Shown piece after piece: positions 2,142 through 64,000 of a stretch of DNA of 64,000 nucleotides. The position numbers and the translations under genes were made by a program. Location: contig NMRA01000015.1 in assembly GCA_002633005.1 (NCBI GenBank), positions 1,844,200-1,908,199 on the forward strand, read 5' to 3'. How positions within the stretch are numbered: the first letter of the stretch is position 1; the number at the start of each line of letters is the position of its first letter. Origin of the DNA: Phoronis australis. Lineage: Eukaryota; Animalia; Phoronida. Under the pieces are notes generated by a model that saw nothing but the letters and a program-made list of their open reading frames with translations, ran no database searches and was not told the DNA's origin.

Positions 2142-2226
2142 ATCAGCCGGATGGATCGAAAAGCTGCAGCTGAGCGGGTCGTCTAACTATAAGTCAGTGA
2201 TCTTGCGTTTTGCTTTGTTTTTGAAC

Positions 2227-21200: not shown

Positions 21201-24200
21201 GTGCTAAAAGTTGTCTCACTTAAAGTGCATTATAGCGTAAGTGTACCCATTTTTGACACCTTTTCACATCATTTTGTACTTCCATATAAATTCTGAGTTA
21301 TTTCTGCAAAAGCTTACTCAATGTCAATGTAATGAAACATGTTTTCTTGAACTATAAGATGTGTCACCTATAAAAAGAGACGATCAAGATACTAAGATTT
21401 CACAAGTGATACAAAACAACTCACTTGGCTCATGAAAGTGTGTACCCCTGATTGATACCCCATAACCCAGTGTTTCCGAAAGCACATTTCTAAAAGTCCT
21501 CATTATTTCCTGATGACTGGTTATTTCATTAAACAATAGTTAAGATTGTGTAGTATTATTTAATGTACAATTATGCTTCAAGTCTGAAAACATTACAAAA
21601 TTGTAAACTTCCCAGTCATCTGCTTCCACGTGCGGTTTGATGGCACACGTGCAGTGCAGGCTGTTTGATGGCATATGGACAGTGCTCTCTGTTTGCTCAC
21701 AAGACTTCAGTGTAACTGGTAAAGCTGAAAAATACATTTTGATTCACCAAGAATCATAAGGGTGTCGATGGTGGGCACACTATTGATTGTGGGTTCACTT
21801 TTGCTATGTTTTTGTTGCTTCGCTGAGCTTAGAACGATCTTCCCTGACGTGTTACTACTTACTATTAGATTATTGGTAAAATAGGTCCAGACCACATGAT
21901 TAATTTTGTCTTTGGGTTTCAATTGATTTCCGGGGATGTGACTGTCATACGTTTAACTATAACCTAAATATATTTTCAGGAGTATAGTCGTCACCATCTC
22001 AAGAAACGCTTAAAGCGAGTCGATGTCACACATAATGATGACTTTCTTCACAGCATTCCCAAGTCAGACTTCTACAAGGTATTTTACATTGGTTTTCTCT
22101 GGATGAATTCCCATAAAAACATTTCTCTTCTCCCGAAGCACATCTCTTTTTACACTCTGACTGCAGTTCATCCTGAGAACAGAATTGCAGTGAAAAGCTT
22201 GCCGAAGAAATGCTTAAAGATGTATTTGCATGCTCCTAACTATGCTAATGTATAGCAGGAACTAAACGGCAATGCTGCTGAACATCATCTACGCTAAACA
22301 AAGTGCAGTTGTATTCATTGACAACTTGTAAATGTGAAAACAAAGAATTATGCAAATAGGTGACCTTTGCACTAATGACGTACCTCGAGGGCTCACATAG
22401 CCCAAATCATGCGCGGTCCCCAACACCACGTCACGAAACTTACTCGACATGGTTGAGTGATTGCAGCAGATCATTTTCGATCCAAAACTCGTTCTTAAAA
22501 ACATCTGGCAATTTTCAACGTACTTCATACTTAGTCACATTGTCGCTATATGTTGTGTTTCTAACTAATTTGACCAATCAATGACAGAGATAAGGAATTA
22601 GTGTGCAACTTCCACTTTAAATGAGTAAAACACTGTTTATGAGAACACTCAGACAGTCTTTGAAGGAGAAAGATTTTCTGCCCTAGGAGGATTTCCCCTG
22701 TATTTTTAAGTAGACACTACTAGTCTTTAACTGATGAGTGGTGGCCCCTTCACCCACATTTTTAAATTCTTATTTTTGCATGTAATGTGAGTGCCCGATG
22801 GAAGTATCTGAAAGTCAATTTAGTATAATTTTGTTAGACCAAACGGCATTGGAGACCTCTCATGGTTGTAGGTTGTATACCGAATAATGTAATTTTATGT
22901 TCCAAATACATAGTTAGATTCTTTTCACGTGTTTTGGTGTTTTTGTTACTAACTTGCACAGGATTCTTGGCGGGAGAACATATTGCATTAAGTGACCGAT
23001 TTGTGACTTTCTTCTTAACTTTAGATTGTAAAGCTGGAGAAACTAATGAAGGCCAGAGGCAAACTGAACAACCAGATGGATGTTGATTCATTTTGGATCA
23101 ACATCAAGAAGCCTGAGGTGTTCTATTCATACTTTGGAAGATATCCAAAAGGAGGTGAGAGCATTATGTTTATACTTGGCATTATGGGTAGGGGTAGATT
23201 CTTTTGCAGCATTTCATACTTTACCTGAAAATTTTATGGACCATGAATGTGAGACTGTTCATAGGTGGATTTAGGAGGACGCTATGAAATCTTAGTTCCA
23301 CAGGACAATTTGTCTTCTAACTTCTTCTCTCTGAACAATACAAACCACAGTTTGAAGGATCTGAATAACACACACACACCTGTTTTGATTCATGGCTCAT
23401 GTCAACAGTTTCAAAACTGTTTGTCAGCAATTGCTGACACCAAAAGCTAGACAATATGATATACAGCAATGCATTATTCTTTGACTTAACTTAAAAGCGG
23501 CAGAAAACTTAGATAAATCTAAGATATGTTTTCCCTAGCTGTCACTGAGGAAGAAAAAAGCCAGTTGCTCAGTTTCCGTCTATTTTTGGTTGCTTGTAGG
23601 TGTTTACTTTCTATGTTCTCTACCATTTCAGATTTTGAATCAGACTATGAATACAGGGCAGGGTCAGATCATTCCTATCACACTGGTGTGCATACCTCAG
23701 CAGGGAGTTCTGCTGGTGCTCAGAGTGAACACGACAGACGACCTGCCATGATGAGTGCAGTACCAGAAACTGGGGAGTCTACTCGGCCAACAACACAGCA
23801 CGTACAAGTGGGCAATAGAATTGTAGAGGAGACAGAGGTACAGTGGTGTTGGTTGAATACCACATGGTGTTGTGTGGGTAACACCCAGTGGGTGGTCAGT
23901 GATTATGGTCATAGTGAAAGAACTTGAGGCGGCAGAAAATGATGGTGTTAATCATAACAATAATATCTATGCTATATAGCAATTACTAAAAGCTAAGTGC
24001 TTTACTATAAGCAGTTTGTTCAGGAGGTTGCTGAAACAAATATTGAAGACAAGGAACACTTTCAGTGAAAGATGGACAGTGTTGCTGAATGTTATGTTCT
24101 ACTTGCTTTGTTTGTTTTAACAACTTGGATACATTGTTCAAAGCGTTCTGTAACCAATATAATGAAATCAGACCCAACATTTTGGAATTAAGTCCATTAA

Positions 24201-45734: not shown

Positions 45735-47623
45735 CTGGAATCACATTCAGTTTATACAATGTGAGAAATGATACTCAAGGTTTCCCAGCCACCAGCAACC
45801 ATGGCCAAAGTCCAGACTATTTTAGGCCATACCTAAGCAACATTTCAACCCACTGTAGCCCATGCAGGAAATCAATTCTCAGAACACAAAAAACACAGTT
45901 TACTTTAACTATTTAATGTTCTGGTACATGCTTGACGTCTACATCATACTTTTGGTTTGCGGAACTCCATATATTTATATTAATTTCATTTTTATAGAAA
46001 TCAATGAAAAAGTTCAAAATACATACTAATTTAGAAAGTAAAATATGACGAACTGAGCAAGGGGTATTTGAAAAGGTACCACCCCTTCAAATTTGCCTTT
46101 GTTGATATCATGTTACACATATGGTGAAGTCACACACGTCAGTTTGTGCTGCGTAACGAGTGTCACATATACAACACAATTGAAGGTTAAAACTAATGTT
46201 CATAGACATATTTAATGCAGACGCTACTTGTGACTCTGTTAATGTATAAGTATCAAGACAATGGAACATAATTTTACTGCTTTATCAATAATAGCCCAGG
46301 TTGTCAGATACAGTCAGCTGAGAAGAAACAAACAAAAACTAAATCTACCGGTAATACTTGTATATAATTGTGTTGCTACTAATCAGCACATTTATATCAT
46401 TTATTGTAAACTATTTTGCCCGGGGTATGCCACGAGCTATGTTGCAGAGTAAAACAATTTTTGTTCGCCAAGACATAATGCTTTCCAATGCTTTATGGGC
46501 TTAACTCTTATTATTGTACATTGTATTTTTCATAATAAACATCAAAAATTTTTGTAAGAATTATTAGTCTTCATACATGTCACATGTTCCTTATGTTATA
46601 TGAACTACGAGTCATGTGACCAACATATATGAAGTGTATGAAGATGTATATTAATTAACTTATAAACTAATACTTGTAAAACTTGAGCTGGCTTTCATGA
46701 ATGACCATGCAATCAATGACGAGTAACATTGTTTTCACTCCTTCCCTTAAGCCTAAAAATTCAGTGACAAACATGGGGATAATCAATAAGCAATTACACG
46801 CCAGTGCCTGTCATTATGCTTAAGAGTACTCTTGATTGCACACAGTAATTAAAATGTTTTAAATAAGGCAATCCAGGCCCCAGGACACTAACATCAAAAC
46901 TGTATAGTATAAAGTTAACACCTGACTTGAATTTCTAAAGAAAATATTAGGATACAAAGACAGAAAGTTAAAAAATAGTTTTTATCTTTGAGAAACACAT
47001 AAAAACATTCTCTTCTATTCCAACTAGTTACAAAGTTCACAAAATGAAATGCAAAGTATGAGTTTTGTCAAAACATATAGGAATTTCAATATAACATCAA
47101 TTTTAGTCAAAACTAAAACAAAATTGAAAATATCCATTTTAAGTATAGCTTAAGAAATTCTGGTGGTACACTAACAAAATGAATACTGAAGTGAAGTGAA
47201 AAATTACTTTTTATAAACTTTGATAGCAAAACTGCAGTACGCACAAGATTAACATCTACAAGATGTCCTAGTTTTAGTAAAGCCAAACACAATACAGCTT
47301 CAGTGTTGCCTGTTAACGGTATATATTGTGATCGTGAATGTCTAGCAGAGAGGAAATGCGCTTGTGCCTATTCTAAGTAAGGTTATTTTTGGAGTGTAAC
47401 TAATCATGCAATATAACACGACTGAGACTGCAGTCAGTGGAACTGGCAAACAACCGTCTATCCACTTACTGGCAGCATAATGCTGTAACAAACACCATTT
47501 AGTTCTATTCATGCATCAAACCACTATCTCTGTCTCATACAGTTTCCTTTGCCAGCCGTCTAATATTCGTTTCATTACAAGAACTGATGCATCAGTTGTT
47601 CCCACACATTATATGCATATATA

Positions 47624-48202
47624 TCAGTCCTCAATGTCTGCTTTATTAATATCCATCTTCTTTGTGTTATTATCAGTTGGCACATCGTTAGTTTCCTGTA
47701 AGATGGAGTTAATGACAGATATAGTGTCATAATCACTATCTGAGTCAGTATCCCCCTTGGTGTCAATAACCATTGGTTTCCTAAAAATCAGTTCATTTTT
47801 AAAGCTGTCCATTTTCTCCTGCTCCTCTTCAGCTTTAGGTAACAAGTCAGCCACAAGATCTTCAATTTCTACACTAGGATAGTCTTCTTCTAAACTACCG
47901 CCACGCCGCGGAGTTGAAACCTTTGCACTGGAACTCGGCTCTTTGTTCTCCTTGTCCGCAGTCGAGGTATCTCCTCCCGTTACGTCCACACCAAATTCCT
48001 TGCAGAGAGCATTTAGATCCATTTTCGTTGACATCCGTTTATGAAACACTTTTCCTTTTGGCAAGTTTGCTCTAGTGTCTTTCAAATCAATGTCTGCAGG
48101 TCTCTTATCAAACGTAGTCACATTGAATTCTTCACAAAGTGCATTCAGGTCAAATGTTACGAATCTAGAAGATCGACGCTTGGTCATAGGTTTTTTAGCC
48201 AT
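47624..48202 (-). CDS. Orphan single-coding-exon ORF (~192 aa) with a duplicated DLNALCxEF motif and an acidic C-terminal half
   Basis: Part of the 252-codon open frame 48382-47624. The likely start MAKKPMTKRRSSR at 48202 is preceded 2 nt upstream by an acceptor-like tttgtcag. The composition is protein-like and the internal repeat is peptide-level. No homolog recognised. Confidence 0.55.
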   Translation of the reverse strand: MAKKPMTKRRSSRFVTFDLNALCEEFNVTTFDKRPADIDLKDTRANLPKGKVFHKRMSTKMDLNALCKEFGVDVTGGDTSTADKENKEPSSSAKVSTPRRGGSLEEDYPSVEIEDLVADLLPKAEEEQEKMDSFKNELIFRKPMVIDTKGDTDSDSDYDTISVINSILQETNDVPTDNNTKKMDINKADIED

Positions 48203-49249
48203 CGCTGACAAACAGGCCCATGGCAGACCACCATCTCTTAAGATGAACTTGAAGAGCCAACAGACCTGTACAACTGCTGAGGTGGTTAATGGCAATAAGA
48301 TTGAATAACAATGGCTATTGATTGTACACACTGGGAAGAGTCCAACATTCTGCAAGGTCATTATAGGCAGCATTGTGATCAATGATGATCAATGGGTAAG
48401 ATTATGTATTAGTGAAATGCAACATATATGTAATCCTCTGTATTAGATTATTCAACAAGAGAACTTCATTATCTTGGCAAGCTTGATATACATGACCATC
48501 CTTCATTAGCAGGCAAGTGAAGAAGAGAACCCATAGCGGCGAGTTCACGTTCACAGCAGTTGCTGGTGAAAGGATTACGAAGACTAATTGAATGATCGCA
48601 TGACAAAATTTCTCAATTTACTACTATATAAAAATCACAGATTTCGTCAATCAATTTCTATAATAGCGACATCAACAACACAAATGCCAAACTAATGGTA
48701 AAATTAAATGGACAGTAAGTGATTGTCACATCTCTTATTTTAACAAAGTCTAGTTTTTGCAACGTATCAAATTAATATTCATTCCAAAGTAGTAACTATT
48801 TTTTACCATAATTCTTTTTACTCGTTCCTTAGCACTAATTGTCAAGCTGAATACTTTATTGTCTGAGAGTTCAGTACTCAAATAAACATATCAGTTTAGT
48901 TTACGGAAAAATCTCAGCAAATTCGGACAAAAATAATTGTCCAAAATGCTTTTTAAGGGCTTCTAAGCTTGTAGTGAATGCCCATAAATTTTCAAAACTT
49001 TATTTGATGGTGTTTGTGGTATAAAACCTGAACATCATGCTATGAACATTCCCACTAAATAAAATTGGTTCTAACCCCAGTGGTTAAGGTAAACGGCGGG
49101 GTATGGAAAATTGAACTAGACCGTATTTATCCACCTTGGCTGAGTCGCACTCGGCTCACGATCAAAGGGATGCCGCCAGGCTGCTCTAGTCATCGAGTCA
49201 CGAGCGAGGATAATTGGCTTTGCTCATGCGGATATGATCAGCTGATTAC

Positions 49250-49417
49250 TAGCAGACTGTACTTTTTATGGTGAGAGTTTTACGTAGTTTTTACTGTAAT
49301 ATTTGAAAAGAGGAGCGAAAACAAACTGATTACAATCTAGCTAGCAGACTGTACTTTTTATGGTGAGAGTTTTACGTAGTTTTTACTGTAATATTTGAAA
49401 ATGGGAGCGAAAACAAA
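49250..49417. repeat. ~90-bp-period tandem duplication
   Basis: ctagcagactgtactttttatggtgagagttttacgtagtttttactgtaatatttgaaaa...gagcgaaaacaaa at 49250 and again at 49341. Confidence 0.8.
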
Positions 49418-49873
49418 TATGAGTACAACTTTGAATTTTTCAAATCGGCCCGGGATAAGAGATTTTGCAACACAGCAACACTCACGATTACTTTCATTCG
49501 GCGCGCACTAATACAAAAATATAGGACCCAAGTTATTTCGATTTTGGAACACATGCATTGCAATATTCAAAATACTTTTATTATGAATCTTACAACCTGT
49601 AAAACGACGTTGTTAATTTCATTGTGTTCATTCATTGTCAGCCGTCAAATCGGCAATTTCCGAGATGTGATCTGCGGCGTGCGCGTATGTGTACAAAACA
49701 CGTGATTGTTATGTTCCTGAAGTACGAAAATTAAGAAGGCTTTAACATGCCTTTATTATTGACAGGGACACGATAAAACGAATTTGGATTTTGACTATAG
49801 TCTTGATACAGCGATCTGACTGACCACTGCGTCAGTGTCTCCGTTAGACCCAGAAATTTCACACAGCCCGGGT

Positions 49874-50239
49874 AGTTCATTTCGTCCCCAACATGTACAT
49901 GTAGATCGAGCCTTGGACTATTAATACTCCACGTACGGCAGAGCTAACGACAGTCGGCCTGTGCACACAAAATCTGTGAGTTAACCAGCACTCACCCTCT
50001 ACGTTACAGCCGTTTAAGTGAAAAACAATCTAGTAAACGCCATTTTCTTGCATAATCCTCCAGTTCATTTCGTCCCCAACATGTAGATCGAGCCTTGGAC
50101 TATTAATACTCCACGGCAGAGCTAACGACAGTCGGCCTATGCACAAAAAATCTGTGAGTTAACCAGCACTCACCTTGCACGTTACAGCCATTTAAGTGAA
50201 AAAAAATCTAGTAAACGCCATTTTCTTGCATAATCCTCC
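49874..50239. repeat. ~185-bp tandem duplication
   Basis: agttcatttcgtccccaacatg...cattttcttgcataatcctcc at 49874-50061 and 50062-50239. Confidence 0.85.
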
Positions 50240-51061
50240 GCCTTTTGTAACAAAAAAGTCTATCGTCGATGACCCGCACACGCACGCTCACTCACTCTCA
50301 TACACAGACGACCTTCAAAACAAACGTCACGTGACAACAACATGTGTGTTCATCCAGAGATTTTTCACTTGTTGTGGAGTACGATGTAGCGCACATTTGG
50401 ACTTAATCGCAATTAATCTGGACTCCACATGAACTTTAAAAATTGTAAAACATCAGGAAGATTTCAGGTAATTTGTTGAGTCGAAACTATATTTTTATTC
50501 AAGAGTACAGTCAAGTTTTCCTATTGACGATGGCGATTCAGAGGCGACGCATCAGTCGGCAAGTTTACGCCCTGTGATGAGCACAATTTTTTGAAAAATT
50601 ATCGTAATTTAACAACGGAAGTTCATAGCAATGCACCACAATTTTGTAGAAAGACTGTCATAGGCTAAAAATTCGTCACAAAGCGTAAATTTTATGAATC
50701 CTAGCTTCCGATTTTACCCGTTTGGGAAACCGGCTTTCAACTGCCGTAGTCTACAATAAGAATCCCCTCCCCGTGAAATGATTTTTTCTAAGCGTTTATT
50801 AGAGCCAATACAGTATACAGCTTTCCACCAAGGCTAGGTGATACTACGACGTTATTCTTTGTTGCATTAGTAACTGGTCTTGGCTAATATTATCATTTTA
50901 TGGCCTGGTCATCCATTCAGCCAAAAGTAGTTCCAGAGGTGGCTTATCAGCCAATTATTCACGCATGCTGACTCACAAATAGAAGCCTGATAAGAGTGAA
51001 GGTGGATAAATGCGGTGTTCCTACAGTTTCTTGTTTTAGTAGATGTGTTCACGACATGCAA
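50130..51061 (+). repeat. Interspersed repeat, inverted copy at 36947-37863; abuts the transposase promoter
   Basis: Direct sequence comparison. Homology ends at ...cacgacatgcaa, ~80 bp before the 25-bp motif at 51141. Confidence 0.8.
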
Positions 51062-51253
51062 TTATCATGTTATTGTGTCTGTAGTTACGTTAAAAAGCGA
51101 AAATTAAAAAAAAATCCGCGAAAAGTTGACCTTTGACACCGTGACATGGTGTTGGGGAACACAAACTAGATCAATATCCCACAATGCAGTTTACCGCCCA
51201 TAGAAAACAGTGGAAGACGAACAAGGAGCGTTCAATCTTGGCGTGATTTAGAC

Positions 51254-54200
51254 ATGGTACATCGGTGTGTGTGCGCCAACTGTGCTAACACCAGCCAGGT
51301 GGAAGGCGGGACCCTATTTAGGTTTCCCAAAGACAAGCATCTGGCCGCGAAATGGCACGTTTTCGTGTGCACTGCTCGTCATTGGAAAATGACTGTCGAG
51401 TCGGCCATATCTGTCGGAGCCGAAATATGCTCCGACCACTTTGAGGACGGCTTCTTCGACGACAAACATATCATGAAGTTTGAAGCTGGTCTTGTGAAAA
51501 GGTATAAGTTATCTTCATAATTTATGGCTTAGATCCATGACGCTTTCTCAGTGCTTGAACTATAACGATCTTTTTTTGCAATCACCATAGTTCTCGCGGT
51601 CAACAGTTGCTGAGTGTTGCCGGTGGTATTTCTTTGGAATGTTGCCCAGTAGGACCAGTAGGCTATTTGTTGATTCAACTGTTCTTGGTGTTGTGTGTGT
51701 AGCAGCGCTAGTTGAGCATCATGTTGACCCCATGCAATTTCATTTGCTGATGGTTCTCAAAGTCAAGTCACGCGAAGTCAGTAAGGATCATTTAGGGTAT
51801 CATATTTTTGAGAATCATTGTCTTCAGCCAAATTAGAGTGGAGATATACATCTGGTACTATGGGGAGAGCAGCACTTGGGTGGACAATACCATCAGCCCC
51901 CTATGGTGCACACCGCCCATGCCGATGGGCGGCCCAGCTCTGAAGTAACTACATACATGTACTATAGCCCTGTTGTAGATGTGCTTCCAGTGAATCATAT
52001 GAGCCTCTGTTAGCTACTCGCTAATGGGAAATTGCCTATTAGCTGAATGGTTAGCACGCTTGCCGGTTTTATGGGGGTCGTGGATTCGATTCCTGAGTCT
52101 GGTAATCTCGGCTATTACTACAGCCCCCCCCCAGCCCCCTACGAGGCTATGGTGCGCTTCAGAGACCACTGTATTTNTTAGCACGCTTGCCGGTTTTATG
52201 GGGGTCGTGGGTTCGATTCCTGAGTCGGGTAATCTTGGCTATTACTACAGCCCCCCCCCACAGCCCCCTACGAGGCTATGGTGTGCCTCTGAATATCAGA
52301 GACCACTGTATTTGAGCATCAGGAGGTTCTTTGTGGGGTTTTGTCAACCAAGTAATAGATGGTGGTGTGCTGACAAAAGTTTGAACTGTTCTAACCATAC
52401 ATCAAGGTAACTAAACTACACGGTCAAAGGACTCATAAACACGGGCACGGACACATGAACACGACTCATGGACCTGCAAACACCGTCCGCTGACTCACAA
52501 ACATGGGAATGGACTCACAAAACATGATCCACGTACCCAAATACGCGGGACACGGACTCATAGTCACGAGGAAACAAGGTTAACGGACAGTGGACGGTGT
52601 TTGCAGATCCATGCGTCTGTGGCCCGTGTTTATGAGTCCACTGACCATGTAGTTTAGGTACCTTGTACATGTACTGTTCATAGCTAAGCATTTATCTGCC
52701 CTTCAGTGGAACTTGACAGTGACCCTCATTGGAATGTGTTTATGACAGTTTTTCATGGTTAATTAGTTTAGGCATTTCTTTGTAAATATTAAGTCTTAAG
52801 TTATCTATTGTTGAATGGAGACAACATTCTTGGGAAATCTATTTTCTTCTTTATTGAATAGACCTTATTTGTTTATGTTTCATTTCCTGGTTTTCTTTAG
52901 ATTTCAATTGACTTGATGGAGCCTCTATTATATTAGATGTTTGTGGACTCTGACAACCTATTGTGTTTTCATACCTGTAGCAGATTAACTCTATAATCCT
53001 ATCCAGCTGCCCCCATTGTTAAGTCTTAACTTGTATTTACAATCATCCCAGTCCAAACTTTTTCTCATTGGTTACTTTTGTATTTGGTACACATTCATAT
53101 TAGTGGAATAGGTTCACTTGCAAGTTTGATGTAATACCTTTATACTACCATGCCAGAAGCTTTTATACATCATATTTAACACTTGTGTTTTTCTCTATAA
53201 ACCACCTTGGGGTTTTTCCTTGCATAATAAAACCTAGAACCCTAAAGTGGATTCAGAGAATCTTTTTCACCACAGTAATACCAGTTAGGGCTAAAATGTA
53301 TCCTGTAATAGATTTATTTTGTCAATGTTGTCATTTCATAATTTTGTCAAAAATGCCTTCGGGGCAAGACTGGATGTCTTGTCTGTTATTCAGTCTTGGA
53401 TAATTATAGCTTAGCTATTGAAACAGTTGTTCATTTCATTGTAATGATATTATTGACATGGTGATGAACAGGATCTCTTCAAAATATCCATTCCTGCACC
53501 TTTTCACATTTTACTAGTTTCGACTGACTTCAGTATGTAATTTACTTAATATCTGGGGTACTTAGACTCAGCCTTTGTGACTGACATTTAACATGGTGAC
53601 CCTTTTTTAAACATTTCAGTTTACAGACTTGTGCCATATACATGTAGAATTTATTTTTGAGTGCAATTAACATTTACAAATTTTATCAGGCGGTTAAAGT
53701 TAAAACCAGGAGCAGTGCCTACACGACAGAAGTCAGCAGATGGCAGTGAAATCCCAACCAAAAAGCCAAGGAGAGACAGTGTTGCTGCCACGAAGCTTGC
53801 ACAATCCAGAGTATGATTAAGTTACTGGTCACTAAACTACACAGTTTTGTGGATGCATTCCATAGTCAGATTATTCTATTCAGTTGCTTGAGCTTTAGTG
53901 GACTAAATAATAATTATGGAAATCCTGTTTGTAATCACGTTTAATTTCAGCTGTAACTGCTGTGAGTATTTTGGGAATTTTCCTGTCCCCTGATTGGTCA
54001 AAAGAAGTCAGATTCAATGAGGCAACGTTCAATATTCGTTAATCATATAATAAAACAAACTTAGTGAACAGAGGAGTAAGTCAACACAAGAAGTTTTAGT
54101 TTTGCCGCGGCATTACTCAAGTGAAGATACTCTTTGTTTTACCTTTTTGAAAATCAGTAATTATAAACATTTTTGTTGTGTCGCATCACACTAAAATGCA

Positions 54201-57200
54201 TTTATCTTGGCATTGACTCAATGCAACATGGTAATGTCATTGCCTGTACATTGTACATTATATCCACATTTATTTCAGTTGAAGGTTGAGATGAAACAGA
54301 TGGCAGTGAAGAGACGTCAACAGCAGCTGCCTCACGCTCAAGGTGCACCATCCACGTCATCTCTGTCCACCGATGATCCGCCCTTATCAGATGTCACAGC
54401 CATGCACACAACTGAGGTCGCTTTCAATGCACCAAGCTCAGAGACTCCCACCCATGCACTGCAGCACCCTCCAGTGGTCACTGTTACTTATATTACAACA
54501 GCGACTCAGGTGGCTCCAAGTATCTCAAGCGTTGGTACACAGACTTACACTGACATGGTTACAACTGGTACTCAAGTGTCTCCAGAAATGCTTACGATTG
54601 GTACACAAACCAATGTCATTAGTAAGTGAATCACTATTTTGTAGTACAACTTTTTCAGATTGCTTTTGCATTCATTTTCAGTTCATGATGTTAATTGGGT
54701 TTACCTTTCATGTTATTGTATACAACTGTTTTAGAACATTGCCTGATGTTTTTATTTACATCATGTCACCATTGTTATAATTTTGTGCTGTAATTGATTA
54801 CATACATATCTATTTATTTTCCAATGTGGCATTCTATATTAGTTCAATAGTATTTCAACACATGATGTTATCCATCACCTCATAGCATACCCAGTATAAC
54901 AATTATTTTTTACTTCATGAGTTGCCACAAAAATGGAATTATTACGCTCATTTTAAAGTATATTTATTTTGTTTCATCAGAAGCTGATATGGAGGAATAC
55001 GAGCAGCAGCAAGAAAACAGGCAAACTGCTGCTGTGGCACAATCAAGCTCTCCTCCACAGCCATCCACTTCACGTAAAAGTTCTTCCAGCTCTGTAGATG
55101 ACTCTGGATCTTCTTACATTCCGAGCTCCTCAGATGTGGAATCCAGCCCAGAAAAAATGAAGAGGTATATAATGGTAGTTATTTGATAACCCTGGATTCT
55201 TATTGTCCTACAGCGTACGAGGAAATTGTTGCCTTTGGTATGCTCTTGTGTATTCTAGCCATGTTTTCTTCTGCTTAGGTGTTCCTTATTGATACATTGA
55301 CTTACACCAGACACCAGTGTTGGCTGTCTCTTGTTGTGTAAGATTACTGAGTTCAAATATGAAGTCGTAATATACACACCTGAACATTTTTCGGTGGCTG
55401 AACTTTTTTTAAGTACTGTTGTGCTTTTTTTAAGTACTGGGCTTGTGTGCACTAAGCTATAGTGGGATAGAAATTCTGAGCTGTGGATTCCATATAATTA
55501 TGATGGGCCGGTTGCTGCAGTACTGTCATTTGTGTATTTGTGCTATTGGAGCTGTACGATTCTTGAATATGTTACTCTTTTTTAGACCATCGAGAATAAA
55601 GCAGGAAAAGTACTTGGCAAAAGATGACGACAGAATCCTCTTGGTTTTTGAGTCCATGCTGTTACAGTTATTGTCATTTTGCATGACATGCAGACGGAGG
55701 GCAACACCCCAGTTGATCAAGTTTATCGGCACCATGGTTGTGATCCATCAGGTGTGCTCTCAATCAAACTGCCCAGGATACACTTGGTCCTCACAGCCAA
55801 GTATAGACCAGCTGCCTCTTGGAAACATTCTGTTGTCACTATCAATTCTTTGTGCTGGCAGTTCAGCATCCAAAACCCTGAGGGTTTTAAAATTCATGGG
55901 CGTGAAAGCCTATCACTACTCGACGTTTTATCGCCACCAAAAAATGTATCTCAACGGCGCCATCATGAGAGTTTGGGAAACACAGCAGGCCGAGCTCCTG
56001 AGAACCCTGGGTGATGACGTGCTTCTGGGTGGTGATGCCCGTTGTGACAGCCCAGGACACACGGCGAAATATGGCAGCTATACTTTCATGGACTTAAAAC
56101 GGAATAAGATTGTTGCCATGGAGCTAGTACAGGTATTAAAAATTACATTGTGCTTGCATGACCTGGGTTGGATCACAAATGTGTCTATTACCTTTGCACA
56201 TGAATATTTTTCCATGGCAAATGTTTTGTTCACTGAAAAGGGATCTGTGAACTTCCGAAATGAGACTTTACTTTTCATTAACTGTACCAGGACCAGGTGG
56301 AGTCAAATGGCTAGAATTTTTATGTTCTAAAATCTCACAATTGATTGATGTTATACTTAAGATGCAAATTTTTATACGAATGTATTTTTGCTTTGATATT
56401 GCATTGAGTGGTGTTCCAATGGTAATGTTTACTCATTTCCTGTTGTTTGTGATCCTCTTGATCGGTATGTAGAGACAATCTGTGACATTGTAAGCTAAGT
56501 GGCTCAACTATCTGCTCTTACTGCTAGACTATTTCTATAATTTTAACACATAATTTAGGTGTGTTTTATACTGTCTTTTAGGTAGTCTTATCAGGTGTCA
56601 GTTTTGTACTCATTTTTGGTTTTTGCTTCATTTATTTCAGAAAAATGAAGTTGCAGGCTCCTATCACATGGAATTGGAAGGATTCAAAAGGTGCCGACTG
56701 AAGCTGTTGGACCATGTGGTTCCTCAGAGTCTGACAATTGTGACAGATCGTCACCCTTCCATTAATAAATGGATTGCAGATTACTGGGCTATTGTCAAGC
56801 ACTTCTTTGATATTTGGCATATAGCTAAAGGTACGGTGACATACAAAAAAGTTCCTGAAAATGCTTATCATTGAAGTCAAAGTTTTAGTGAGTTCTCGTC
56901 ACTTTGCATCGAATTTTTTTTTCAAGTTTTTTTATAACTTAAGTATGTTAGCCAAATTTTGGCATGATTCATCAACTGTTGTTAAAAACTACTGGAACCA
57001 TTTTTATATGATGTGTGTTGTAGTAAATTAAAGTAAGGTGGCTTTGAACATATGCTCTTGTAAAAGTTGCCTTCAATTTTGAATAAGTGGGACTACGTTC
57101 ATCCTTGCGTGGCACCCGTACTCGCCTGGGGTTGTAGCATGTAATATTGAGAAGATTCTTGTTGCATTTCACTAATTTGTGATGGCCTGTAATTTTGCAT

Positions 57201-59416
57201 TAATTTGTTGTGCCTTCCTAGGTCTGCGTAAAAAACTGGCCCCACTGAGCAAGAAGTACCCATTGGTGAAGAAGTGGGAAGATGCAATCATAAATCATGT
57301 GTACTGGTGTGGCACAGAAAGTAAGGGTGATGGTGTCCTGTGTCTAGAGATGTGGCAGAGTTTGGGAAACCACATCGTGAACATACACACTCACAAAGAC
57401 AATAGTGTGTACACTGAGTGCAGGCACGGCCCCCTTCAACCTAGGGAATGGATGACTCCAGGTATGTAAGCGTTATATTTGCCATGCTTTATATGGTGAT
57501 ACCTGAATGCTTTTCATAATGAATGGCTTTGCTTTGCTGACGTTTGGAAATGGTAGAATTGTGCTCTTATTTACACTGCCAGCTTTGCCCACTTTATTCA
57601 AGATATGCATGGAAAACCAAATGATTCCTGTAAGGTATAGTTGCGATTCAGGTTATCAAAAGGGTAGTTTGGTTTTCACTATTTGTCAATCTTGGGTGTT
57701 GCGAGAAGTTGCCAGCTAATTCAGTGTTTCTCCTGCTATTACATAGCTACTGTTTCACTCTCACTCATTCTTATTTGTTGTACAAATGAAGTCTCTTTTT
57801 TCGAAGGTTTGATGAAACCTTCATACTCGTAGTTCCAGGCCTGTAATTGTGGCATGTTATTGTTAACTACGTATTGAGTTGATTACTGTGATGGTACAAG
57901 CAGTATTATTTATACAGGGACTGCTCAATATGAAGATCTTATGAAGGTGTTGGATAACAAGCTTTTGAGGAAAGACATCTCCAGGCTTTCTCCCGTTGGC
58001 CAGACCGCATCCTTAGAAGGATTCCACTCCCTTGTGAACCAATTTGCTCCAAAAATGAAGCATTTTGGTTACTCGGGGATGAATAGCAGGTTTGTATCAT
58101 AGTCATGTATCATGGGCTCTAATAGGGACGGGTAGGGGGTCATCACTGCACCAAGGTAGTCTGGGACATTCCACTGTCTTATTGTAGCTTCAGGCTTCCC
58201 TTGTGGAAAGCTTCATTGAGCATCAATCTGTATCTTTCAAAGATATTGTGGCATAAGTTTCAGACTTTTAGGAGTTATTTTTGTCTTTTTGAACTAACGT
58301 AAATCTGTACCCTGCCTCCATATATTCCATTAAAAACATTTGAAATACTCAACAGTGCATTTGTTATGAACACTTGGTATACCATTATTTGAAATATTCT
58401 GTGCTTCGTTCATCAACACGGATCACAATAGTTTGGGTGTGCTTTTGAAGCGGCTGGGGTTCAAAGCAAACTTTTTCACATTGCATGCCTTCTTTGACAT
58501 GCCAGCATTTGAATAACACTCTTCCTTACCTGAGTGAATTCTTTCCGTTTATGTTATCTGTTGAAAAATTCTTACTGTAATATTTTTCAGGCTTTTGTTA
58601 GCAGTTCTGCACTACAACGAAAATGCTGGCAGGGCGTGTGTTGTAGACACCGATGGTAACGCCAAGTGGAGTATGGCATTTCCGCGAGGTCGTAGGGGGA
58701 AAGCTGTTGTGAGACCAATCAAGATCGACCCAACATTTGGTATTTTTAAACTGTTCTCACCATATTCTTTTGAGTTGACGCCTATGTTTGCTAAATTCTC
58801 ACTGTTTTTCGAAAGTTCACGTAATCATCGAACACAATTTTTAATTTCTCAGTTTAAGCACCCTAGGCATTCACCTGAAAAGACATGGTATATTTGTCTT
58901 GTACTTATGCAGAATTCAGTTACATTTTTAATTTAAAAACAAAATTCTCCCGAGTTACTGCATTGTTCATATGAAAGCTGATCTCATAAGACGCACGTGT
59001 TTTGAAAAGAATGCAGACTATGAATAAAGTAAAAAAACTATGGTACTTAAGTTGCACGGTTTTGATTATTAAAGTAACCTGCTTCAAAAATAAAATGGGG
59101 TTAACTCTGGTTTTGGCCTTTGCTTGAAGGTTATAAAAGTAGGCGAAAACTTCCACTTAGGTGACGTCGTGTTTAACTTAAATCATTGATTCAAAATGTT
59201 TTTTACTTTAAATTGCAGTTGTTGTGCTTTTCAGAGTATGTGAACGAAGTAAGGAAGAATACCTTACACTTGTTGCGAAATAAAAGAGAAGCCAGTGACC
59301 TCGAAATTCGTTTGGAAATTGACGCCCCTCCAATGCTGAGTGCTGGTGCTCCAGATGTGTCCAAGGAGGAGGCCGTGGCACGGATGAGGAGCCGATATCC
59401 AGACAAATTCAATTAG
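51254..59416 (+). CDS. THAP-domain DDE transposase of Kolobok type, 10 exons, ~791 aa, open reading frame intact
   Basis: Exons 51254-51501, 53690-53810, 54279-54621, 54981-55164, 55586-56132, 56641-56830, 57222-57461, 57918-58089, 58591-58739, 59235-59416 (2376 nt, phase-consistent). THAP C2CH: MVHRCVCANC...FRFP...W...ICSDHF...LKPGAVPT. Catalytic-type motifs GDARCDSPGHTAKYGSY, VTDRH, FDIWH, QTASLEGFHS..FAPK and LAVLHYNEN. Confidence 0.88.
52034..52312 (+). mobile_element. tRNA-derived SINE-like sequence in transposase intron 1, duplicated across an N join
   Basis: Pol III A-box TAGCTGAATGG at 52040-52050. B-box GGATTCGATTCC at 52082-52093 and GGTTCGATTCC at 52210-52220. No clean cloverleaf. 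The second copy follows the N at 52177. Confidence 0.55.
52403..52665. mobile_element. 263-bp MITE with ~50-bp TIRs and a 5-bp TSD
   Basis: caaggtaactaaactacacggtcaaaggactcataaacacgggc ... gcccgtgtttatgagtccactgaccatgtagtttaggtaccttg, with TACAT on both sides (52398-52402, 52666-52670). Confidence 0.8.
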
Positions 59417-60084
59417 ACTGCTTGTTTTGTCAATGGACAGTACTGATATTTCTTTCCATCACATACATGACAATGAATGATATTGGGGCATGAAAAGACT
59501 GACGACCCACACAGGTACTTTTTCGCCCCCTTACCGATGCATTATTTGGGACGGCAACAGTTTACTGCTAATCAAATAAACCTAAAAGCTATGCCACAAT
59601 ATTTATAGTCATTATATTGAAGTAACATTGAAATGTTTCAATGTTAGAACATAGTATGTCGCAGGGTTTATACAAAGCGGACAGCCATATGGCACGCTCA
59701 AAAGTGTTTCACGATTTCCAGTACTGGTACTATAAATACTCTGGCATTGCTATCTGTACAGCTTTCAAAAAAAACCCTAAAACATTGGTAGTGATGAAAA
59801 GATACATGTGTGGGTCGTCAGTCTTTTCGTGCCTGCCAATATCATTCAAATTATATGACAGAATAATCATTTGCACAGAATCCCAACTCTACTGTCTAAC
59901 ATTTTCTTGCGAGTTTTTGTGTGAGTGGTCCAAGCACTCTCCAGATTTCCCACTTCCTACACATGTGTATTATTTTGTGTGTTTTATACCATGTCATAGA
60001 CATCTGAAGCTATTTCATACTGGAGCTTTTGGGTGGAAATTCAGTAGTTTGCCATGTCATGGTAGTTGATGTCTTGTTGAATTA

Positions 60085-60221
60085 CAGTAGAACTCGGTAA
60101 GTTGGAGCCAGTGAGACAGATATTTCATCGAAGTCAAAGTTACTTGGAGGCGTTACAGGAATTAATGCATGCTAGCCTTTCTAGTTTCCACTGAAGCACT
60201 CCAATGTAACGAGTCCTACTG
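60085..60221. mobile_element. 137-bp Tc1/mariner (pogo-like) MITE with TA TSD
   Basis: TA|cagtagaactcggtaagttggag ... ctccaatgtaacgagtcctactg|TA. Confidence 0.7.
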
Positions 60222-60641
60222 TATAAGAAGAGGGCAGGAGATTCAGTCTCTACCTCAGACAATAGTCCAGATTTTTATGTAACAGCAATATTGTTGAATG
60301 TGTTCACTTGAAACTCACTAACAACTCCAGTGAGACCAATTCCTAAGTAAACCATAACTGATGTTGAGTTTAGAGGTTTATAATGTAGTTCTAGTAACAT
60401 TACACTTGTCATGACCATGTCACTATATGTTCCTGAACATCAATATATGCTACTTTCTTTGTCAATTGTTTACCATTCTGAAACCACAGAAATCCATCAT
60501 GGAATGCCAACTTCATTTTTGTACCAAAGTAGATAAGGCTACTCCCCGAGTCACAAGTTTTAGTAATAGAGTACTTAGGTAATGAGCTGGAGTTGGCATT
60601 CCAGGGCTAAGACAACTCGATATATATATACATAAATGAAA

Positions 60642-62724
60642 CTAATGAGAAAACCCTTGAAACTCAAAGTCCTCCTCATTTCCCGGTGGAGGGTAAAAAG
60701 CTCTGATGCAGGCCACTGCGCATGCTGGAATTACAACACGGACAGTTCGTCCTAGGTGACCATGCACCCATCTTTGGAACTGTCTGTAGGCTATGTGCCG
60801 CATCCTTTTATCAAAGGGTCCGTCATAGCCATCCGGATATTGGCTTTTATACTGCAACCATGCAGTCTCCAAAACATCACGATTGATGCACACAGGTTGA
60901 AAACTTCCATGGTCCACGATACATTTTTTTCTTCTGTTTAAGTTGTCCCTCTTCATTTCGTCCTCAAGTTTAGCAATAACCTTGTTGACCTCTTGACAAC
61001 ATACTCTTTCTNTTAAGTTGTCCCTCTTCATTTCTTCCTCAAGTTTAGCAATAACCTTGTTGACCTCTTGACAACTTACTCTTTCTTCAATGACTGCAGT
61101 AGTCTGACAGTTGTCACACGTGCACCTGCAAGATGTGACAATATGTATACATTACTTTAGTAAACATCAAAATGTCGAATTGAAAAAATTACTGATTTAC
61201 CAAGAGTGTCTCGGCCAAATTAATGATTGAGGGTTTGCAATGACCTCAGTTTTCGAGAAGACTGATTGTTGAGCAGCGACCTGTTTTTTTAATAATCGTG
61301 AATATTACAGTAAACATTTTAAAAAACTTCTCCATATCCGATGCCTTCTATACTCTTTAGAAACTTTACCAGACGGTTCCTTCCAAAGTCAACTCGCACC
61401 CAAGCCATGTACCAATTTTCACAAATAACAGCAACATTAAGCACATAGGCATGAAAGCATTGACTTACACAAACTAAACCTGGTTAGAAAAACGTGTGTA
61501 CATTGCTCTGGCCCTAGAGTATGAAAATGAAGTGACCTGTTTTATAACCAATGGAATTCCCTCCGGCCCCCAGGTAAGAAAGTCTAAGTTGCAAAGTTGC
61601 AATTCTTTTTTCCTCTTGTTTACACTACACAGTTGAGTATTGGGAGGTGGTTCTCATTCATTCCCATGCATANGCTGACACCTGATTCATTGATGGAGGG
61701 GTCTGTTTTGTTAATAATCGTGAATATTACAGTAAACATTTTTAAAAACTCCATATCTGATGCCTTCTATACTCTTTAGAAACTTTACCAGACAGTTCCT
61801 TACCAAGTCAACTCGCACCCAAGCCATGTACCAATTTTCACAAATAACAGCAACATTAGGTACATAGGCACGAAAGCATTGACTTACACAAACTAAAACT
61901 GGTTAGAAAAACGTGTGTACATTGCTCTGGGTCCAAGTTGACTTGGCCTTAGAGTATGAAAATGAAGTGACCTGTTGTATAACCCATGGAATTCCCTCCG
62001 TCCCCCAGGTAAGAAAGTCTAAGTTGCAAAATTGCTATTCTTTTTTCCCCTTGTTTACACTACACAGTTGAGTATTGGGAGGTGGTTCTCATTCTTTCCC
62101 ATGCATACATTTATTCACTCACTAGTAAGACTGAGCTCATAGGAGTAGGAGACAATGCCCAATTGTCTGCCAGTGAAAGCCAGGATTCGAACCCGAGTCT
62201 CACAAAGGGGCCCAAACCAATGTGCCACTGTCTACAAATAATCAAAGACCACACATTGTTGAGTGATTTGCGTAAATGCAACGAGTCCCATTTTTTATCA
62301 CTGAAACTGGTACTTATCCACGGCTGAAAAATGATTCATCAGTGGGGACGAGGGCGCCTGGGAGTGACCGGTAAAGCTACTGAACTTAAAATTAAAAAAG
62401 ACCAAGTAGTAATTCGCGGTAGTATGATGCATATTTATAATATTCTTACCAGTCACTAACATTCTGTCGCAACTCCTGCGCACCTTCTGCCCGTTGATAT
62501 TCACTGCACGAACCGGCTGGGGCTGGATCGTCGACAACCGGAGCAAGGGGATCGAGGGAAAACGGTTCTACTAAAGAGAAGGTGTGAGCACAAATTGTTC
62601 CTATGGGGTCTGTCGCCTCCTCCTCCACATCCGAAACGTCAGAATCGTCTGAACACTCCACCTGACCCTCCCTGTATCTTTCAAAATATTCTTCATCTAC
62701 GCTGCTGTACTCACTGGGATCCAT
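60642..62724 (-). CDS. KolX-like protein: Cys-rich Zn-binding domain homologous to the P2X7 cytoplasmic ballast / nanor domain, acidic N-terminus; 2 exons
   Basis: Exon 1 is 62724-62450 (MDPSEYSSVDEEY...QNVSDW) and exon 2 is 61125-60642. Motif WCTCDNC...CCQE...CIVDHGSFQPVCIN..VL...RHIAYRQFQRWVHGHLGRTVRVVIPACAVACIRAFYP...FQGF. A 75-nt in-frame duplication around the N at 61012 is probably an artefact (~227 aa without it). Confidence 0.85.
61281..62107. repeat. ~390-bp tandem duplication across the N at 61673 (KolX intron)
   Basis: 61281-61672 closely matches 61702-62107, with scattered substitutions and small indels. Confidence 0.8.
62105..62230 (-). mobile_element. Short tRNA-derived SINE-like element in the KolX intron
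   Basis: Minus strand reads GTGGCACATTGG (A-box) ... GGGTTCGAATCC (B-box), followed by a short body ending near AATAAA. Confidence 0.5.
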
Positions 62725-63194
62725 ATTGTTTCTTTGTGTTCCCCAACACCACGTCACAGATGTGTAACGAAGGAAAATGTCGCCGTTTCTATTTTCCGTT
62801 ACAACAATGGCGTTGTAACGCCACGGCAACAAATATGTAAATAACTTTTTATAGCGACGTACAGTTCAGTTAATGTTAAGAATATAGCAATGATAATTAT
62901 AAACACGAATTTAGAGCATATTGTTGTTCAGATTGGTTGAGACCTTGCAATTTACACTTTAAGTTTTATCTTAAAATTGGCTGAAAGTTAAGATTTGTCT
63001 AAGCTAAGTCAATGTTCATGGAACGGGTCCCAGCTCTTCGTCTATGGATCTCTGACGTGACTTATAACAAAGATATTATAGTTACTCCATCTTTGGTTAT
63101 AAGGCATGTATAGCGAGCAAGCTCATTCGATACAATATTTGACACTTTCCGTACATGGAAATAGACGAATTTTGTATCGAGTGAGTAGGCCTAT

Positions 63195-63617
63195 AGTCCC
63201 GTTTAGACATCAACTTTTGGCCCAGCGCAACTGACACGGAGCAAATTGACCCGTGTTAAGCGGCCGTTTACATACACAACTCACTAAACGTGGTAAGACG
63301 GAAATTGCAGGCTGGAAAGACTGGATCGCACATGCGCAGGTTTACAAATGACGAGAGTTGCAGAGACAAAGAACCCGTATGAAGGTCATTGCACAAGCGC
63401 AGTAGAGATGATCTTTTCCGCCTTTCTCCAGTTTCTCATTTAGATTTATAATTGACACGGCGCAAGATGCTCGCGCGCAAATTGCTCTACCTCACAAACG
63501 GGTGGCAAAAATTTGTCACCGCGGTGTCAATTTGCTCCGTGTCAGTCCGTTTACACACTGGAACAACTTGTTCCGTGTCAGCTGATCCGTGTCAACTTTG
63601 TAAGTGTAAACGGCACT
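63195..63617. mobile_element. 423-bp PIF/Harbinger-like MITE
   Basis: TIR agtcccgtttagaca ... tgtaaacggcact. Internal inverted segments ctgacacggagcaaattgac / gtcaatttgctccgtgtcag. 3-bp direct repeat TAT on both sides (63192-63194, 63618-63620). Confidence 0.75.
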
Positions 63618-64000
63618 TATGCGTACGAGCGTCGCCGAAAGATTTTTTTGAAGCCAACGCTTATTGGACTCTCAGTATTGCTGTAGTGAGATAAGACAAT
63701 GCAACAACTGCTAAATTAAAATTCCTGTCTTTATTTTCATTAATGACATCATACCTCCGCACTCCGTAAAATGCTGAACTGCCCGTAACGCCGCAGTTAC
63801 CGACTTGGTTTTCAGACTCTCGCGCGGCTGCTACCTGACTATGCTGACAGAATTGAAGTTGTTTACACGGAGATTTCAGTCTGAAATTCATTATTAATTT
63901 TAAATGACTGCCAGCATTCAGTATAAATGCCTGATCCTTCGCCTGTGTAACTTGCTGAACCATGAAGCACTAACACTGACGGATATTGGTGTGCAGCACA

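What the first reader, a model, noticed from the sequence alone, without database searches (positions are those of the whole stretch)
51141..62757. Intact two-gene Kolobok-type element pairing a THAP-DDE transposase with a P2X7-ballast-like (KolX) protein
Seen in sequence: a 10-exon, stop-free ~791-aa ORF with an N-terminal THAP zinc finger and GDxRxDSPGH / TDRH / DIWH / QTxSLEGFHS motifs. It converges on a 2-exon gene whose C-terminal domain has the CxCxxC...CC...AYR.F..W..G.LG...R..IP.C...IR..YP pattern. Established knowledge (recalled): this pattern is the Zn- and guanine-nucleotide-binding ballast domain of vertebrate P2X7, and Kolobok transposons carry such a second ORF (KolX) whose function I do not know to be established. 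Inference: this is an autonomous or domesticated two-component system in which a possibly GDP/GTP-sensing accessory protein regulates transposition. Both ORFs stay intact although the introns and the spacer have collected SINEs and MITEs, which suggests purifying selection.
Basis: partly seen in the sequence, partly recalled or inferred. Interest (0 to 1): 0.85.

Follow-up and report, generated by a model that had tools for sequence, protein, structure and literature searches.

The report
Kolobok transposon with KolX-keeping short copies
This is a rare full-length copy of a known two-gene jumping-gene family (Kolobok), not a domesticated host gene; the genome likely holds tens of shortened copies that lost the cutting enzyme but keep and transcribe the small zinc-protein gene KolX, whose kinship to the P2X7 receptor tail was published in 2022.

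Summary
The two genes are real: a 10-exon, 791-aa THAP-DDE transposase and a convergent 2-exon KolX with the P2X7 ballast motif. This is the Kol0 lineage of Kolobok, and KolX = ballast fold was published in 2022 (PMC9587614). This scan noted the same pairing 11 times on other DNA.

The true right end is 62958|TTAA; I found no left end. KolX exon 2 holds a false 75-nt duplication with an N.

Domestication is not supported. In one DNA sample the transposase middle sits at about half host depth. A deletion form (52392>59036) that keeps THAP exon 1, exon 10 and KolX sits at roughly 30-55 times host depth. In three RNA runs nearly all reads come from the parts it keeps: spliced KolX, an exon1>exon10 stub lacking the THAP AVPT box, and antisense read-through.

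KolX is under purifying selection in mobile relatives (dN/dS about 0.13-0.22). Only 3 of 5 GDP-pocket residues are kept, so GDP sensing is untested. One high-depth KolX contig looks frameshifted. Ordinary family; the lopsided copy structure is of modest interest.

The parts
49036..51058 (.). Separate 2,023-bp high-copy repeat with CATG ends, sitting where the element's left end should be (flanks CAT / CAA do not match)
   Evidence: (loose ends, depth)
51059..51165 (+). Remnant of the left subterminal region; about 80 bp with TIR and TTAA likely missing (inferred from spacing in the related MITE)
51141..51165 (+). Inner inverted block, left arm; 88 nt before the transposase ATG
51254..51501 (+). 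Transposase exon 1, most of the THAP domain; kept in the deletion form and spliced to exon 10
52393..59035 (.). 6,643-bp segment absent from the high-depth deletion form (exons 2-9)
   Evidence: joint 52392>59036 in 4 of 4 DNA runs and 3 of 3 raw RNA runs
52403..52665 (.). 263-bp MITE in intron 1 (44-nt inverted ends), inside the deleted segment
53690..53810 (+). Exon 2, carries the THAP AVPT box (aa 91-94)
54279..54621 (+). Exon 3, low-complexity linker
54981..55164 (+). Exon 4, Ser-rich linker
55586..56132 (+). Exon 5, Cys pairs and first catalytic Asp (D449)
56641..56830 (+). Exon 6, second Asp (D517) and DxxH signature (538-541)
57222..57461 (+). Exon 7, H2CH zinc-finger residues
57918..58089 (+). 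Exon 8, catalytic Glu (E658)
58591..58739 (+). Exon 9
59235..59416 (+). Exon 10; read out of frame after exon 1 in the deletion form, giving a predicted 98-aa stub
59487..60223 (.). Spacer with two MITE-like inserts (59487-59833, 60083-60223) carried by the high-depth form; a KolX RNA end cluster near 59777 in one run
60642..61125 (-). KolX exon 2, ballast-like Zn domain
60938..61012 (.). False 75-nt duplication with an N (assembly artefact)
62450..62724 (-). KolX exon 1, acidic leader; phase-2 intron after the Trp, at the same place in three complete relatives
62733..62757 (-). Inner inverted block, right arm; 8 nt before the KolX ATG, about 200 bp inside the right end
62758..62962 (-). Right subterminal region and terminus (5'-AG, ends 62958) followed by the TTAA target site 62959-62962
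22214..22620 (.). Related 399-bp Kolobok-type MITE with TTAA on both sides; fixes what this family's ends look like

Best explanation
This locus is a full-length, two-gene Kolobok (Kol0) cut-and-paste transposon copy, likely present on one chromosome only and likely immobile because its left end appears lost, while its family has spread mainly as a shorter deletion form that keeps KolX. SHOWN: gene structure, motifs, right end at TTAA, the 6,643-bp deletion form in DNA and RNA, KolX splicing, exon1>exon10 splicing, antisense read-through. FROM KNOWN BIOLOGY: the THAP domain binds sites near the ends, and the DDE core excises the element and inserts it at TTAA. INFERRED: rare copies such as this one supply transposase in trans and move the shorter form. 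KolX is most likely a two-zinc structural cofactor of transposition that works in trans, as the second gene of Harbinger elements does; it is kept under purifying selection between mobile families. Its presence in the short form is most simply a by-product of where the deletion fell and of a burst too young for full decay. The 98-aa THAP stub is probably a poor DNA binder.
For: Motifs match Kolobok_1_XT1p and Kolobok_2_DR_1p rows of Data S5 by eye. 36 of 77 KolX loci, or 36 of the 43 long enough to judge, have a convergent transposase; they fall in 8 of 28 sequence clusters. 5 of 27 loci examined are complete, with TTAA and 5'-AG ends; their transposases are 32-33% identical to this one. Their ends are about 230-bp imperfect inverted repeats with a TGACGT block 181-201 bp inside; here it is 206 bp inside. 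Single-contig depth over host depth: deletion joint 54, 37, 30, 42 times; exact-match contigs of the transposase middle 0.56, 0.58, 0.63, 0.88. A contig leaves the window exactly after TTAA 62962 and enters another TTAA-site sequence (table 5c). RNA sense depth over exons 2-9 averages 0.34, 0.14 and 0.00, against 16.7, 15.7 and 202 at KolX exon 2. dN/dS in near-open pairs of relatives: KolX 0.13-0.22, transposase 0.12-0.24.
Against: All DNA comes from one sample, possibly the source of the assembly. Contig depth is only a rough copy proxy (the tool warns so), and run X4 gave 0.88, not 0.5. No contig spans the short form end to end, and its left end was not seen. A TTAA lies at 48953, at the spacing expected for a displaced left end (my reading), although it lacks the AG...TTGCA terminus and host-depth contigs run through it. 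Summed depth of 64-79 over exons 5-8 in X1 suggests one or two further related coding copies that could be the real source. No tree with Repbase sequences was built. Nothing here shows that KolX acts on transposition.
Confidence: 0.78

Rival explanations
1. Division of labour: the short copies are selected to keep making functional KolX, which is limiting for the few transposase-coding copies, so the family runs as a split two-component system.
For: The short form keeps both KolX exons and KolX is spliced in 3 of 3 raw RNA runs. Listed high-depth substitutions in KolX are one silent change, one change in the acidic leader and one that gives the CC zinc pair. An X2 contig of depth 486 skips the false duplication in frame. 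The same asymmetry is reported for a Harbinger family (PMC13668399).
Against: One X3 contig of depth 221 replaces 38 letters of KolX exon 2 by 36, which by my count breaks the frame (tables 5 and 5c). High-depth contigs over 62125-62727 have 19-20 gap letters whose place (intron or exon 1) is not shown. The copies are so alike that neutral retention suffices. None of 6 transposase-free KolX loci elsewhere had paired TTAA-AG ends.
Confidence: 0.22
2. The short form is a self-repressor, like the P-element KP element: its THAP stub blocks the ends, or its overlapping sense and antisense transcripts feed small-RNA silencing.
For: Exon1>exon10 splice in 2, 4 and 58 reads; antisense read-through across the deletion joint in 175 reads in X8; little RNA over exons 2-9. 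KP precedent (PMC7776569, PMC12393704).
Against: The stub loses the AVPT box encoded in exon 2, which is described as needed for folding and for placing the minor-groove residues, and it carries G19V and F67C. Low exon 2-9 RNA may only mean that those animals lack a full copy or that the tissue is somatic. No small-RNA data.
Confidence: 0.15
3. Domesticated host gene pair, kept for a host function.
For: Both frames are open across 10 introns; the left end is missing; domesticated Kolobok transposases exist in Xenopus (PMC6004289).
Against: Half-depth coverage, a high-depth deletion family only about 1-1.5% diverged, a second TTAA junction, and almost no RNA over exons 2-9 in three other animals.
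Confidence: 0.04
4. KolX is a guanine-nucleotide sensor or carrier that gates transposition.
For: R546, H547 and R578 equivalents are kept here and in the family: R 144 of 158, H or Y 143 of 158, R 122 of 147. The isolated P2X7 ballast binds GDP, Kd 2.6 uM (PMC9574498). P-element transposase, of the same C/DxxH group, needs GTP.
Against: The R574 position is Val in 121 of 150 and the K583 position is mostly Pro or Ser. Rump et al. noted the same partial conservation and already suggested GDP binding from models. The kept arginines could be structural or bind DNA phosphate.
Confidence: 0.2

Closest known systems
Kolobok superfamily, Kol0 (Kolobok0) lineage, type Kolobok-1_XT; closest row by eye Kolobok_2_DR (Kojima and Bao 2022, PMC9587614)
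   Same: THAP-DDE transposase with DxxH and H2CH motifs, second gene KolX with the ballast fold, TTAA target, 5'-AG end.
   Different: This copy has 9 transposase introns (in the two relatives listed the catalytic region lies in one open frame), is about 12 kb against 5.4-5.5 kb for complete relatives, and appears to lack its left end. A KolX-keeping deletion family is not described in the parts of that paper I read; Repbase itself was not available.
P2X7 cytoplasmic ballast / Nanor / ZCD family (Pfam PF20478; Rump et al. 2020, PMC7016195)
   Same: Seven zinc cysteines, RHxAYR and P-x-C-x4-IR-x2-(F/Y)P motifs; P2X7 is the top structural match.
   Different: Stand-alone protein of about 227 aa with an acidic leader; two of five GDP-pocket residues differ; no channel domain.
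Harbinger-1M_cIno of Caenorhabditis inopinata (Sato et al. 2026, PMC13668399)
   Same: Two-gene DNA transposon in which accessory-gene copies expanded while about one locus keeps the transposase.
   Different: Other superfamily; its accessory MADF protein is a known DNA binder needed for mobility, whereas the role of KolX is untested. Here the full copy still has both genes.
P element and its KP deletion derivative (PMC7776569, PMC12393704)
   Same: THAP-DDE transposase; an abundant, transcribed internal deletion gives an N-terminal stub.
   Different: KP (207 aa) keeps the whole THAP domain and dimerises; this 98-aa stub loses the AVPT box.

Membership tests
Kolobok superfamily | DDD/E transposase with C/DxxH signature | tested here: met
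   D449, D517, D538xxH541, E658; same layout as Kolobok_1_XT1p and Kolobok_2_DR_1p by eye
Kolobok superfamily | N-terminal THAP domain and H2CH zinc finger | tested here: met
   THAP E 4.3e-10 plus AVPT at aa 91; His/Cys residues at 570-613; features as listed in PMC6004289
Kolobok superfamily | TTAA target site and 5'-RR...YY-3' termini at both ends | tested here: inconclusive
   Right end met (62958|TTAA, 5'-AG). Left end not found in this copy. Both ends met in a related MITE in the window and in 5 of 27 related loci
Kol0 lineage | Second gene KolX with the ballast fold | tested here: met
   Pfam P2RX7_C E 2.5e-12; the top 14 Foldseek rows are P2X7 for both models, none at E<=0.001; VIA Z 6.9, rmsd 4.8, 96 aligned, next row 3.9
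Kol0 lineage | Placement in the Kol0 clade of a transposase tree | not tested
   Reference rows were read by eye only; no tree with them was built
KolobokP | 450-660-bp long terminal direct repeats and a His-Me nuclease | tested here: not met
   No such direct repeat in 44000-64000; the second gene is KolX
Domesticated transposase gene | Single fixed locus with no closely related truncated copies | tested here: not met
   Deletion form at about 30-55 times host depth, transposase middle at about half depth; one DNA sample only
P2X7 ballast / ZCD | Seven zinc-binding cysteines | tested here: met
   All seven in the CC form; each kept in 90-96% of aligned homologs
P2X7 ballast / ZCD | GDP pocket R546, H547, R574, R578, K583 | tested here: inconclusive
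   3 of 5 kept here and in the family; binding cannot be measured here
KP-type repressor element | Truncated protein keeps a complete DNA-binding domain | tested here: not met
   The stub matches Pfam THAP positions 1-66 of 87 and lacks AVPT

The most novel reading that the evidence does not exclude
The family has split into a two-component system: one or two transposase donors and tens of mobile KolX donors. KolX is a dose-limiting cofactor that brings, in trans, the guanine-nucleotide pocket that P-element transposase carries in cis. The GDP site of the P2X7 receptor would then descend from a transposition cofactor, and this family would be a natural test bed.
Probability: 0.1. Interest if true: 0.8.

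Novelty: new member of a known kind. Interest (0 to 1): 0.3.

Why it matters
The pairing and the P2X7 link are known, so the element itself adds a family member. What may be useful is the copy structure. A young, abundant, transcribed deletion form keeps KolX but not the transposase. That gives many near-identical KolX copies on which selection can be measured apart from the transposase, and a cognate pair for the first with/without-KolX excision assay. The role of KolX, and so the ancestral role of the P2X7 ballast, is still open in the papers I read.

Tried and rejected
No whole genome is held for this window, so copy number rests on contig depth.

Left end: a scan of 116 x 21 TTAA pairs found no paired terminus. 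The stretch 48886-49035 ranked 109 of 5,068 windows against the right end, not significant. The 82-nt left remnant alone matched the right flank no better than 51 of 500 shuffles. The 25-nt repeat was rejected as the TIR, and set aside as a generic host promoter motif once its third copy proved to lie in a TTAA-flanked MITE.

Complex prediction of a cognate transposase core and KolX from relative L024 returned 'no answer' (score 0.00, alignments not used); it counts neither for nor against binding.

No RNA holder was listed in the run search; the RNA runs were added by species label.

KolX-only mobile copies in other genomes: none of 6 transposase-free loci showed paired ends. dN/dS: 34 of 78 pairs passed the filters; pairs with broken copies (L066, L041) gave 0.34-0.66 and L048-L010 gave 1.45 on seven changes; the pairs are not independent. 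dN/dS between the window copy and the short form could not be computed, as only 40 of about 840 differences are listed.

Literature: searches for Kolobok+KolX, Kolobok+ballast and Kolobok+'accessory protein' gave one relevant paper; a six-term search on repressing deletion derivatives gave none. The scan's own notes had no match for a KolX-keeping derivative and none for this genome.
Full report
OBSERVATION. Residues 306-786 align in one piece with database proteins at up to 40% identity, which supports the exon model over the catalytic half; exons 2-4 rest on splice signals and frame alone. Exon 1 is a THAP domain (E 4.3e-10), and the convergent gene's second exon matches Pfam P2RX7_C (E 2.5e-12). 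By sequence, the four best solved-structure hits are P2X7, at E 0.002-0.085. A model of the window exon (pLDDT 69) and one of a relative's KolX (pLDDT 91) both rank P2X7 in the first 14 Foldseek rows, none at E<=0.001. The wide search gives P2X7 at Z 6.9 against 3.9 for the next row, below the Z of 8 that the tool treats as clear.

ASSEMBLY FLAWS. KolX exon 2 holds an N between two 74-nt copies. Homologs lack the extra 25 residues, and contigs skip the 75 letters (X5; X2, depth 486). Without it KolX is 227 aa. A like duplication flanks N52177, and a longer one surrounds N61673.

ENDS. It is not the terminus. Five complete relatives (of 27 loci examined) end in TTAA and 5'-AG and have about 230-bp imperfect inverted ends. 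In the three measured, a TGACGT block lies 181-201 bp inside; in the window it lies 206 bp from a TTAA at 62959-62962. DNA depth is about 5,200 at 62815 and 181 at 63156, and one contig leaves the window right after that TTAA and enters sequence that follows a TTAA in another repeat. A 399-bp MITE at 22218-22616 has TTAA on both sides, and its right end aligns with the element's right end (score 93.5, best of 300 shuffles 66). The terminal pattern occurs three times in the window, against 0.24 in shuffles: both MITE ends and 62962. It does not occur on the left. There, 82 bp upstream of the inner block, lies a 2,023-bp high-copy repeat, and beyond it contigs at host depth run up to 49035. I infer that about 80 bp of left end are lost (about 70% likely). 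A TTAA at 48953 fits the spacing but lacks the terminal motif.

COPY STRUCTURE. Four DNA runs of one sample were laid on 44001-64000. Contigs that match the transposase middle exactly have 0.56, 0.58, 0.63 and 0.88 of host-contig depth, which suggests one chromosome. All four runs hold a joint 52392>59036 at 54, 37, 30 and 42 times host depth, and arm contigs at 30-52 times. These differ from the window by about 1-1.5% plus gaps and run as single contigs of 0.5-1 kb, so the copies are young. Contig depth is only a rough proxy for copy number, the sample may be the assembly's source, and no contig spans the short form. The spacer MITEs lie inside such a contig and so travel with the element.

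RNA. About 18-19% of each of three raw runs (three samples, one study, tissue unknown) and one contig run were laid on 47001-64000. The KolX intron is spliced in 17, 7 and 88 reads. Exon 1 is spliced straight to exon 10 in 2, 4 and 58 reads. The deletion joint is read in 7, 6 and 175 reads, in X8 all on the KolX strand, so KolX transcripts run antisense through the THAP stub gene. Sense depth over exons 2-9 averages 0.34, 0.14 and 0.00; those animals may lack a full copy. The exon1>exon10 product is 98 aa and lacks the AVPT box, described as needed for THAP folding and DNA contact (passages of 10.1101/813352 and PMC10824691). A KP-like repressor is therefore doubtful.

IS KOLX KEPT INTACT IN THE SHORT FORM? 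Unsettled. Listed high-depth changes are C24F, one silent change and S>C giving the CC pair. But one X3 contig of depth 221 has 36 letters in place of 38 within exon 2, out of frame by my count, and 19-20 gap letters in contigs over 62125-62727 are not located.

RELATIVES. Of 77 metagenome loci with KolX, 36 have a convergent transposase, 1 a distant divergent one, 6 none within 1.5 kb or more, and 34 are too short. The 36 fall in 8 of 28 clusters. In near-open pairs dN/dS is 0.13-0.22 for KolX and 0.12-0.24 for the transposase. So KolX matters to mobile elements, and purifying selection does not imply domestication. In 160 aligned homologs (of 162 held; the window protein was not among them) each of the seven zinc cysteines is kept in 90-96% of rows with a residue. 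The R546, H547 and R578 positions are kept, R574 is mostly Val, and K583 varies.

MECHANISM. Shown: anatomy, deletion form, transcripts. From known biology: THAP-DDE cut-and-paste into TTAA. Inferred: rare coding copies move the short form in trans, and KolX is a zinc-held cofactor of transposition. Nucleotide gating (0.2), division of labour (0.22) and self-repression (0.15) are not exclusive and are untested.

WHAT IS KNOWN. PMC9587614 (parts 1-2 of 6, section 10, passages, supplement 3 parts 105-106 and search hits) defines Kol0 by KolX, states that KolX has the ballast fold and proposes it as the origin of the P2X7 tail; its Fig. S6 alignment is a picture I could not see. PMC7016195 (passages) reports the partial GDP pocket. 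PMC6004289, PMC7776569, PMC9574498 and PMC12393704 were seen as passages. PMC13668399 (abstract and Discussion) reports accessory-gene copies outnumbering the single transposase locus in a Harbinger family. Kapitonov and Jurka 2007, McCarthy 2019 and Repbase were not seen; Repbase may already hold KolX-keeping non-autonomous families. The scan's notes list 11 similar findings in at least 4 other genomes.

VERDICT. A new member of a known kind. Interest 0.3, mainly for the lopsided copy structure.

Noticed in passing
window 22214-22620: 399-bp Kolobok-type MITE with TTAA on both sides and imperfect AG...TTGCA ends, related to the element's right end; a possible small substrate for assays.
   Followed up: yes
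window 49036-51058: 2,023-bp repeat with CATG ends and imperfect inverted termini, at depth over a thousand times host level and transcribed on both strands; another end copy at 36946-36965. Superfamily not determined.
   Followed up: partly
window 2146-4600 (+) and 5920-16228 (-): Host genes UPF0240 (NDUFAF4, name recalled) and UFL1, side by side. I recall both lying on human 6q16; not checked.
   Followed up: partly
window 47627-48214 (-): Single-exon frame of about 196 aa with a twice-repeated DLNALCxEFxV motif, no Pfam match above cut-off, host-level DNA depth, very low RNA.
   Followed up: no
window 51502-51506: The dominant expressed copies in X8 lack two letters just after the exon 1 donor (115 of 128 reads), which appears to give a closer match to the donor consensus than the window copy has.
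   Followed up: no
window 60524-60545: A 78-letter insertion with a 3-letter duplication in part of the RNA reads; expression of the short form differs about tenfold between samples, so a few copies may dominate.
   Followed up: no
window 52177, 61012, 61673: Three of the five single Ns sit in or between near-identical tandem copies, a sign of a short-read assembly with overlapping contig ends; tandem duplications in this assembly deserve suspicion.
   Followed up: partly
window 63122-63617: Hairpin (63122-63185) followed by a 423-bp MITE-like repeat just right of the element.
   Followed up: no
L034:5502-5946 / L035: KolX exon 2 alone, 89-95% identical to that of two-gene relatives, embedded in unrelated sequence without transposase or Kolobok ends: possibly a captured fragment.
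   Followed up: partly
P0128, P0157: Long proteins (825 and 1,066 aa) with a KolX-like domain near the C-terminus: possible fusions or gene-model joins.
   Followed up: no
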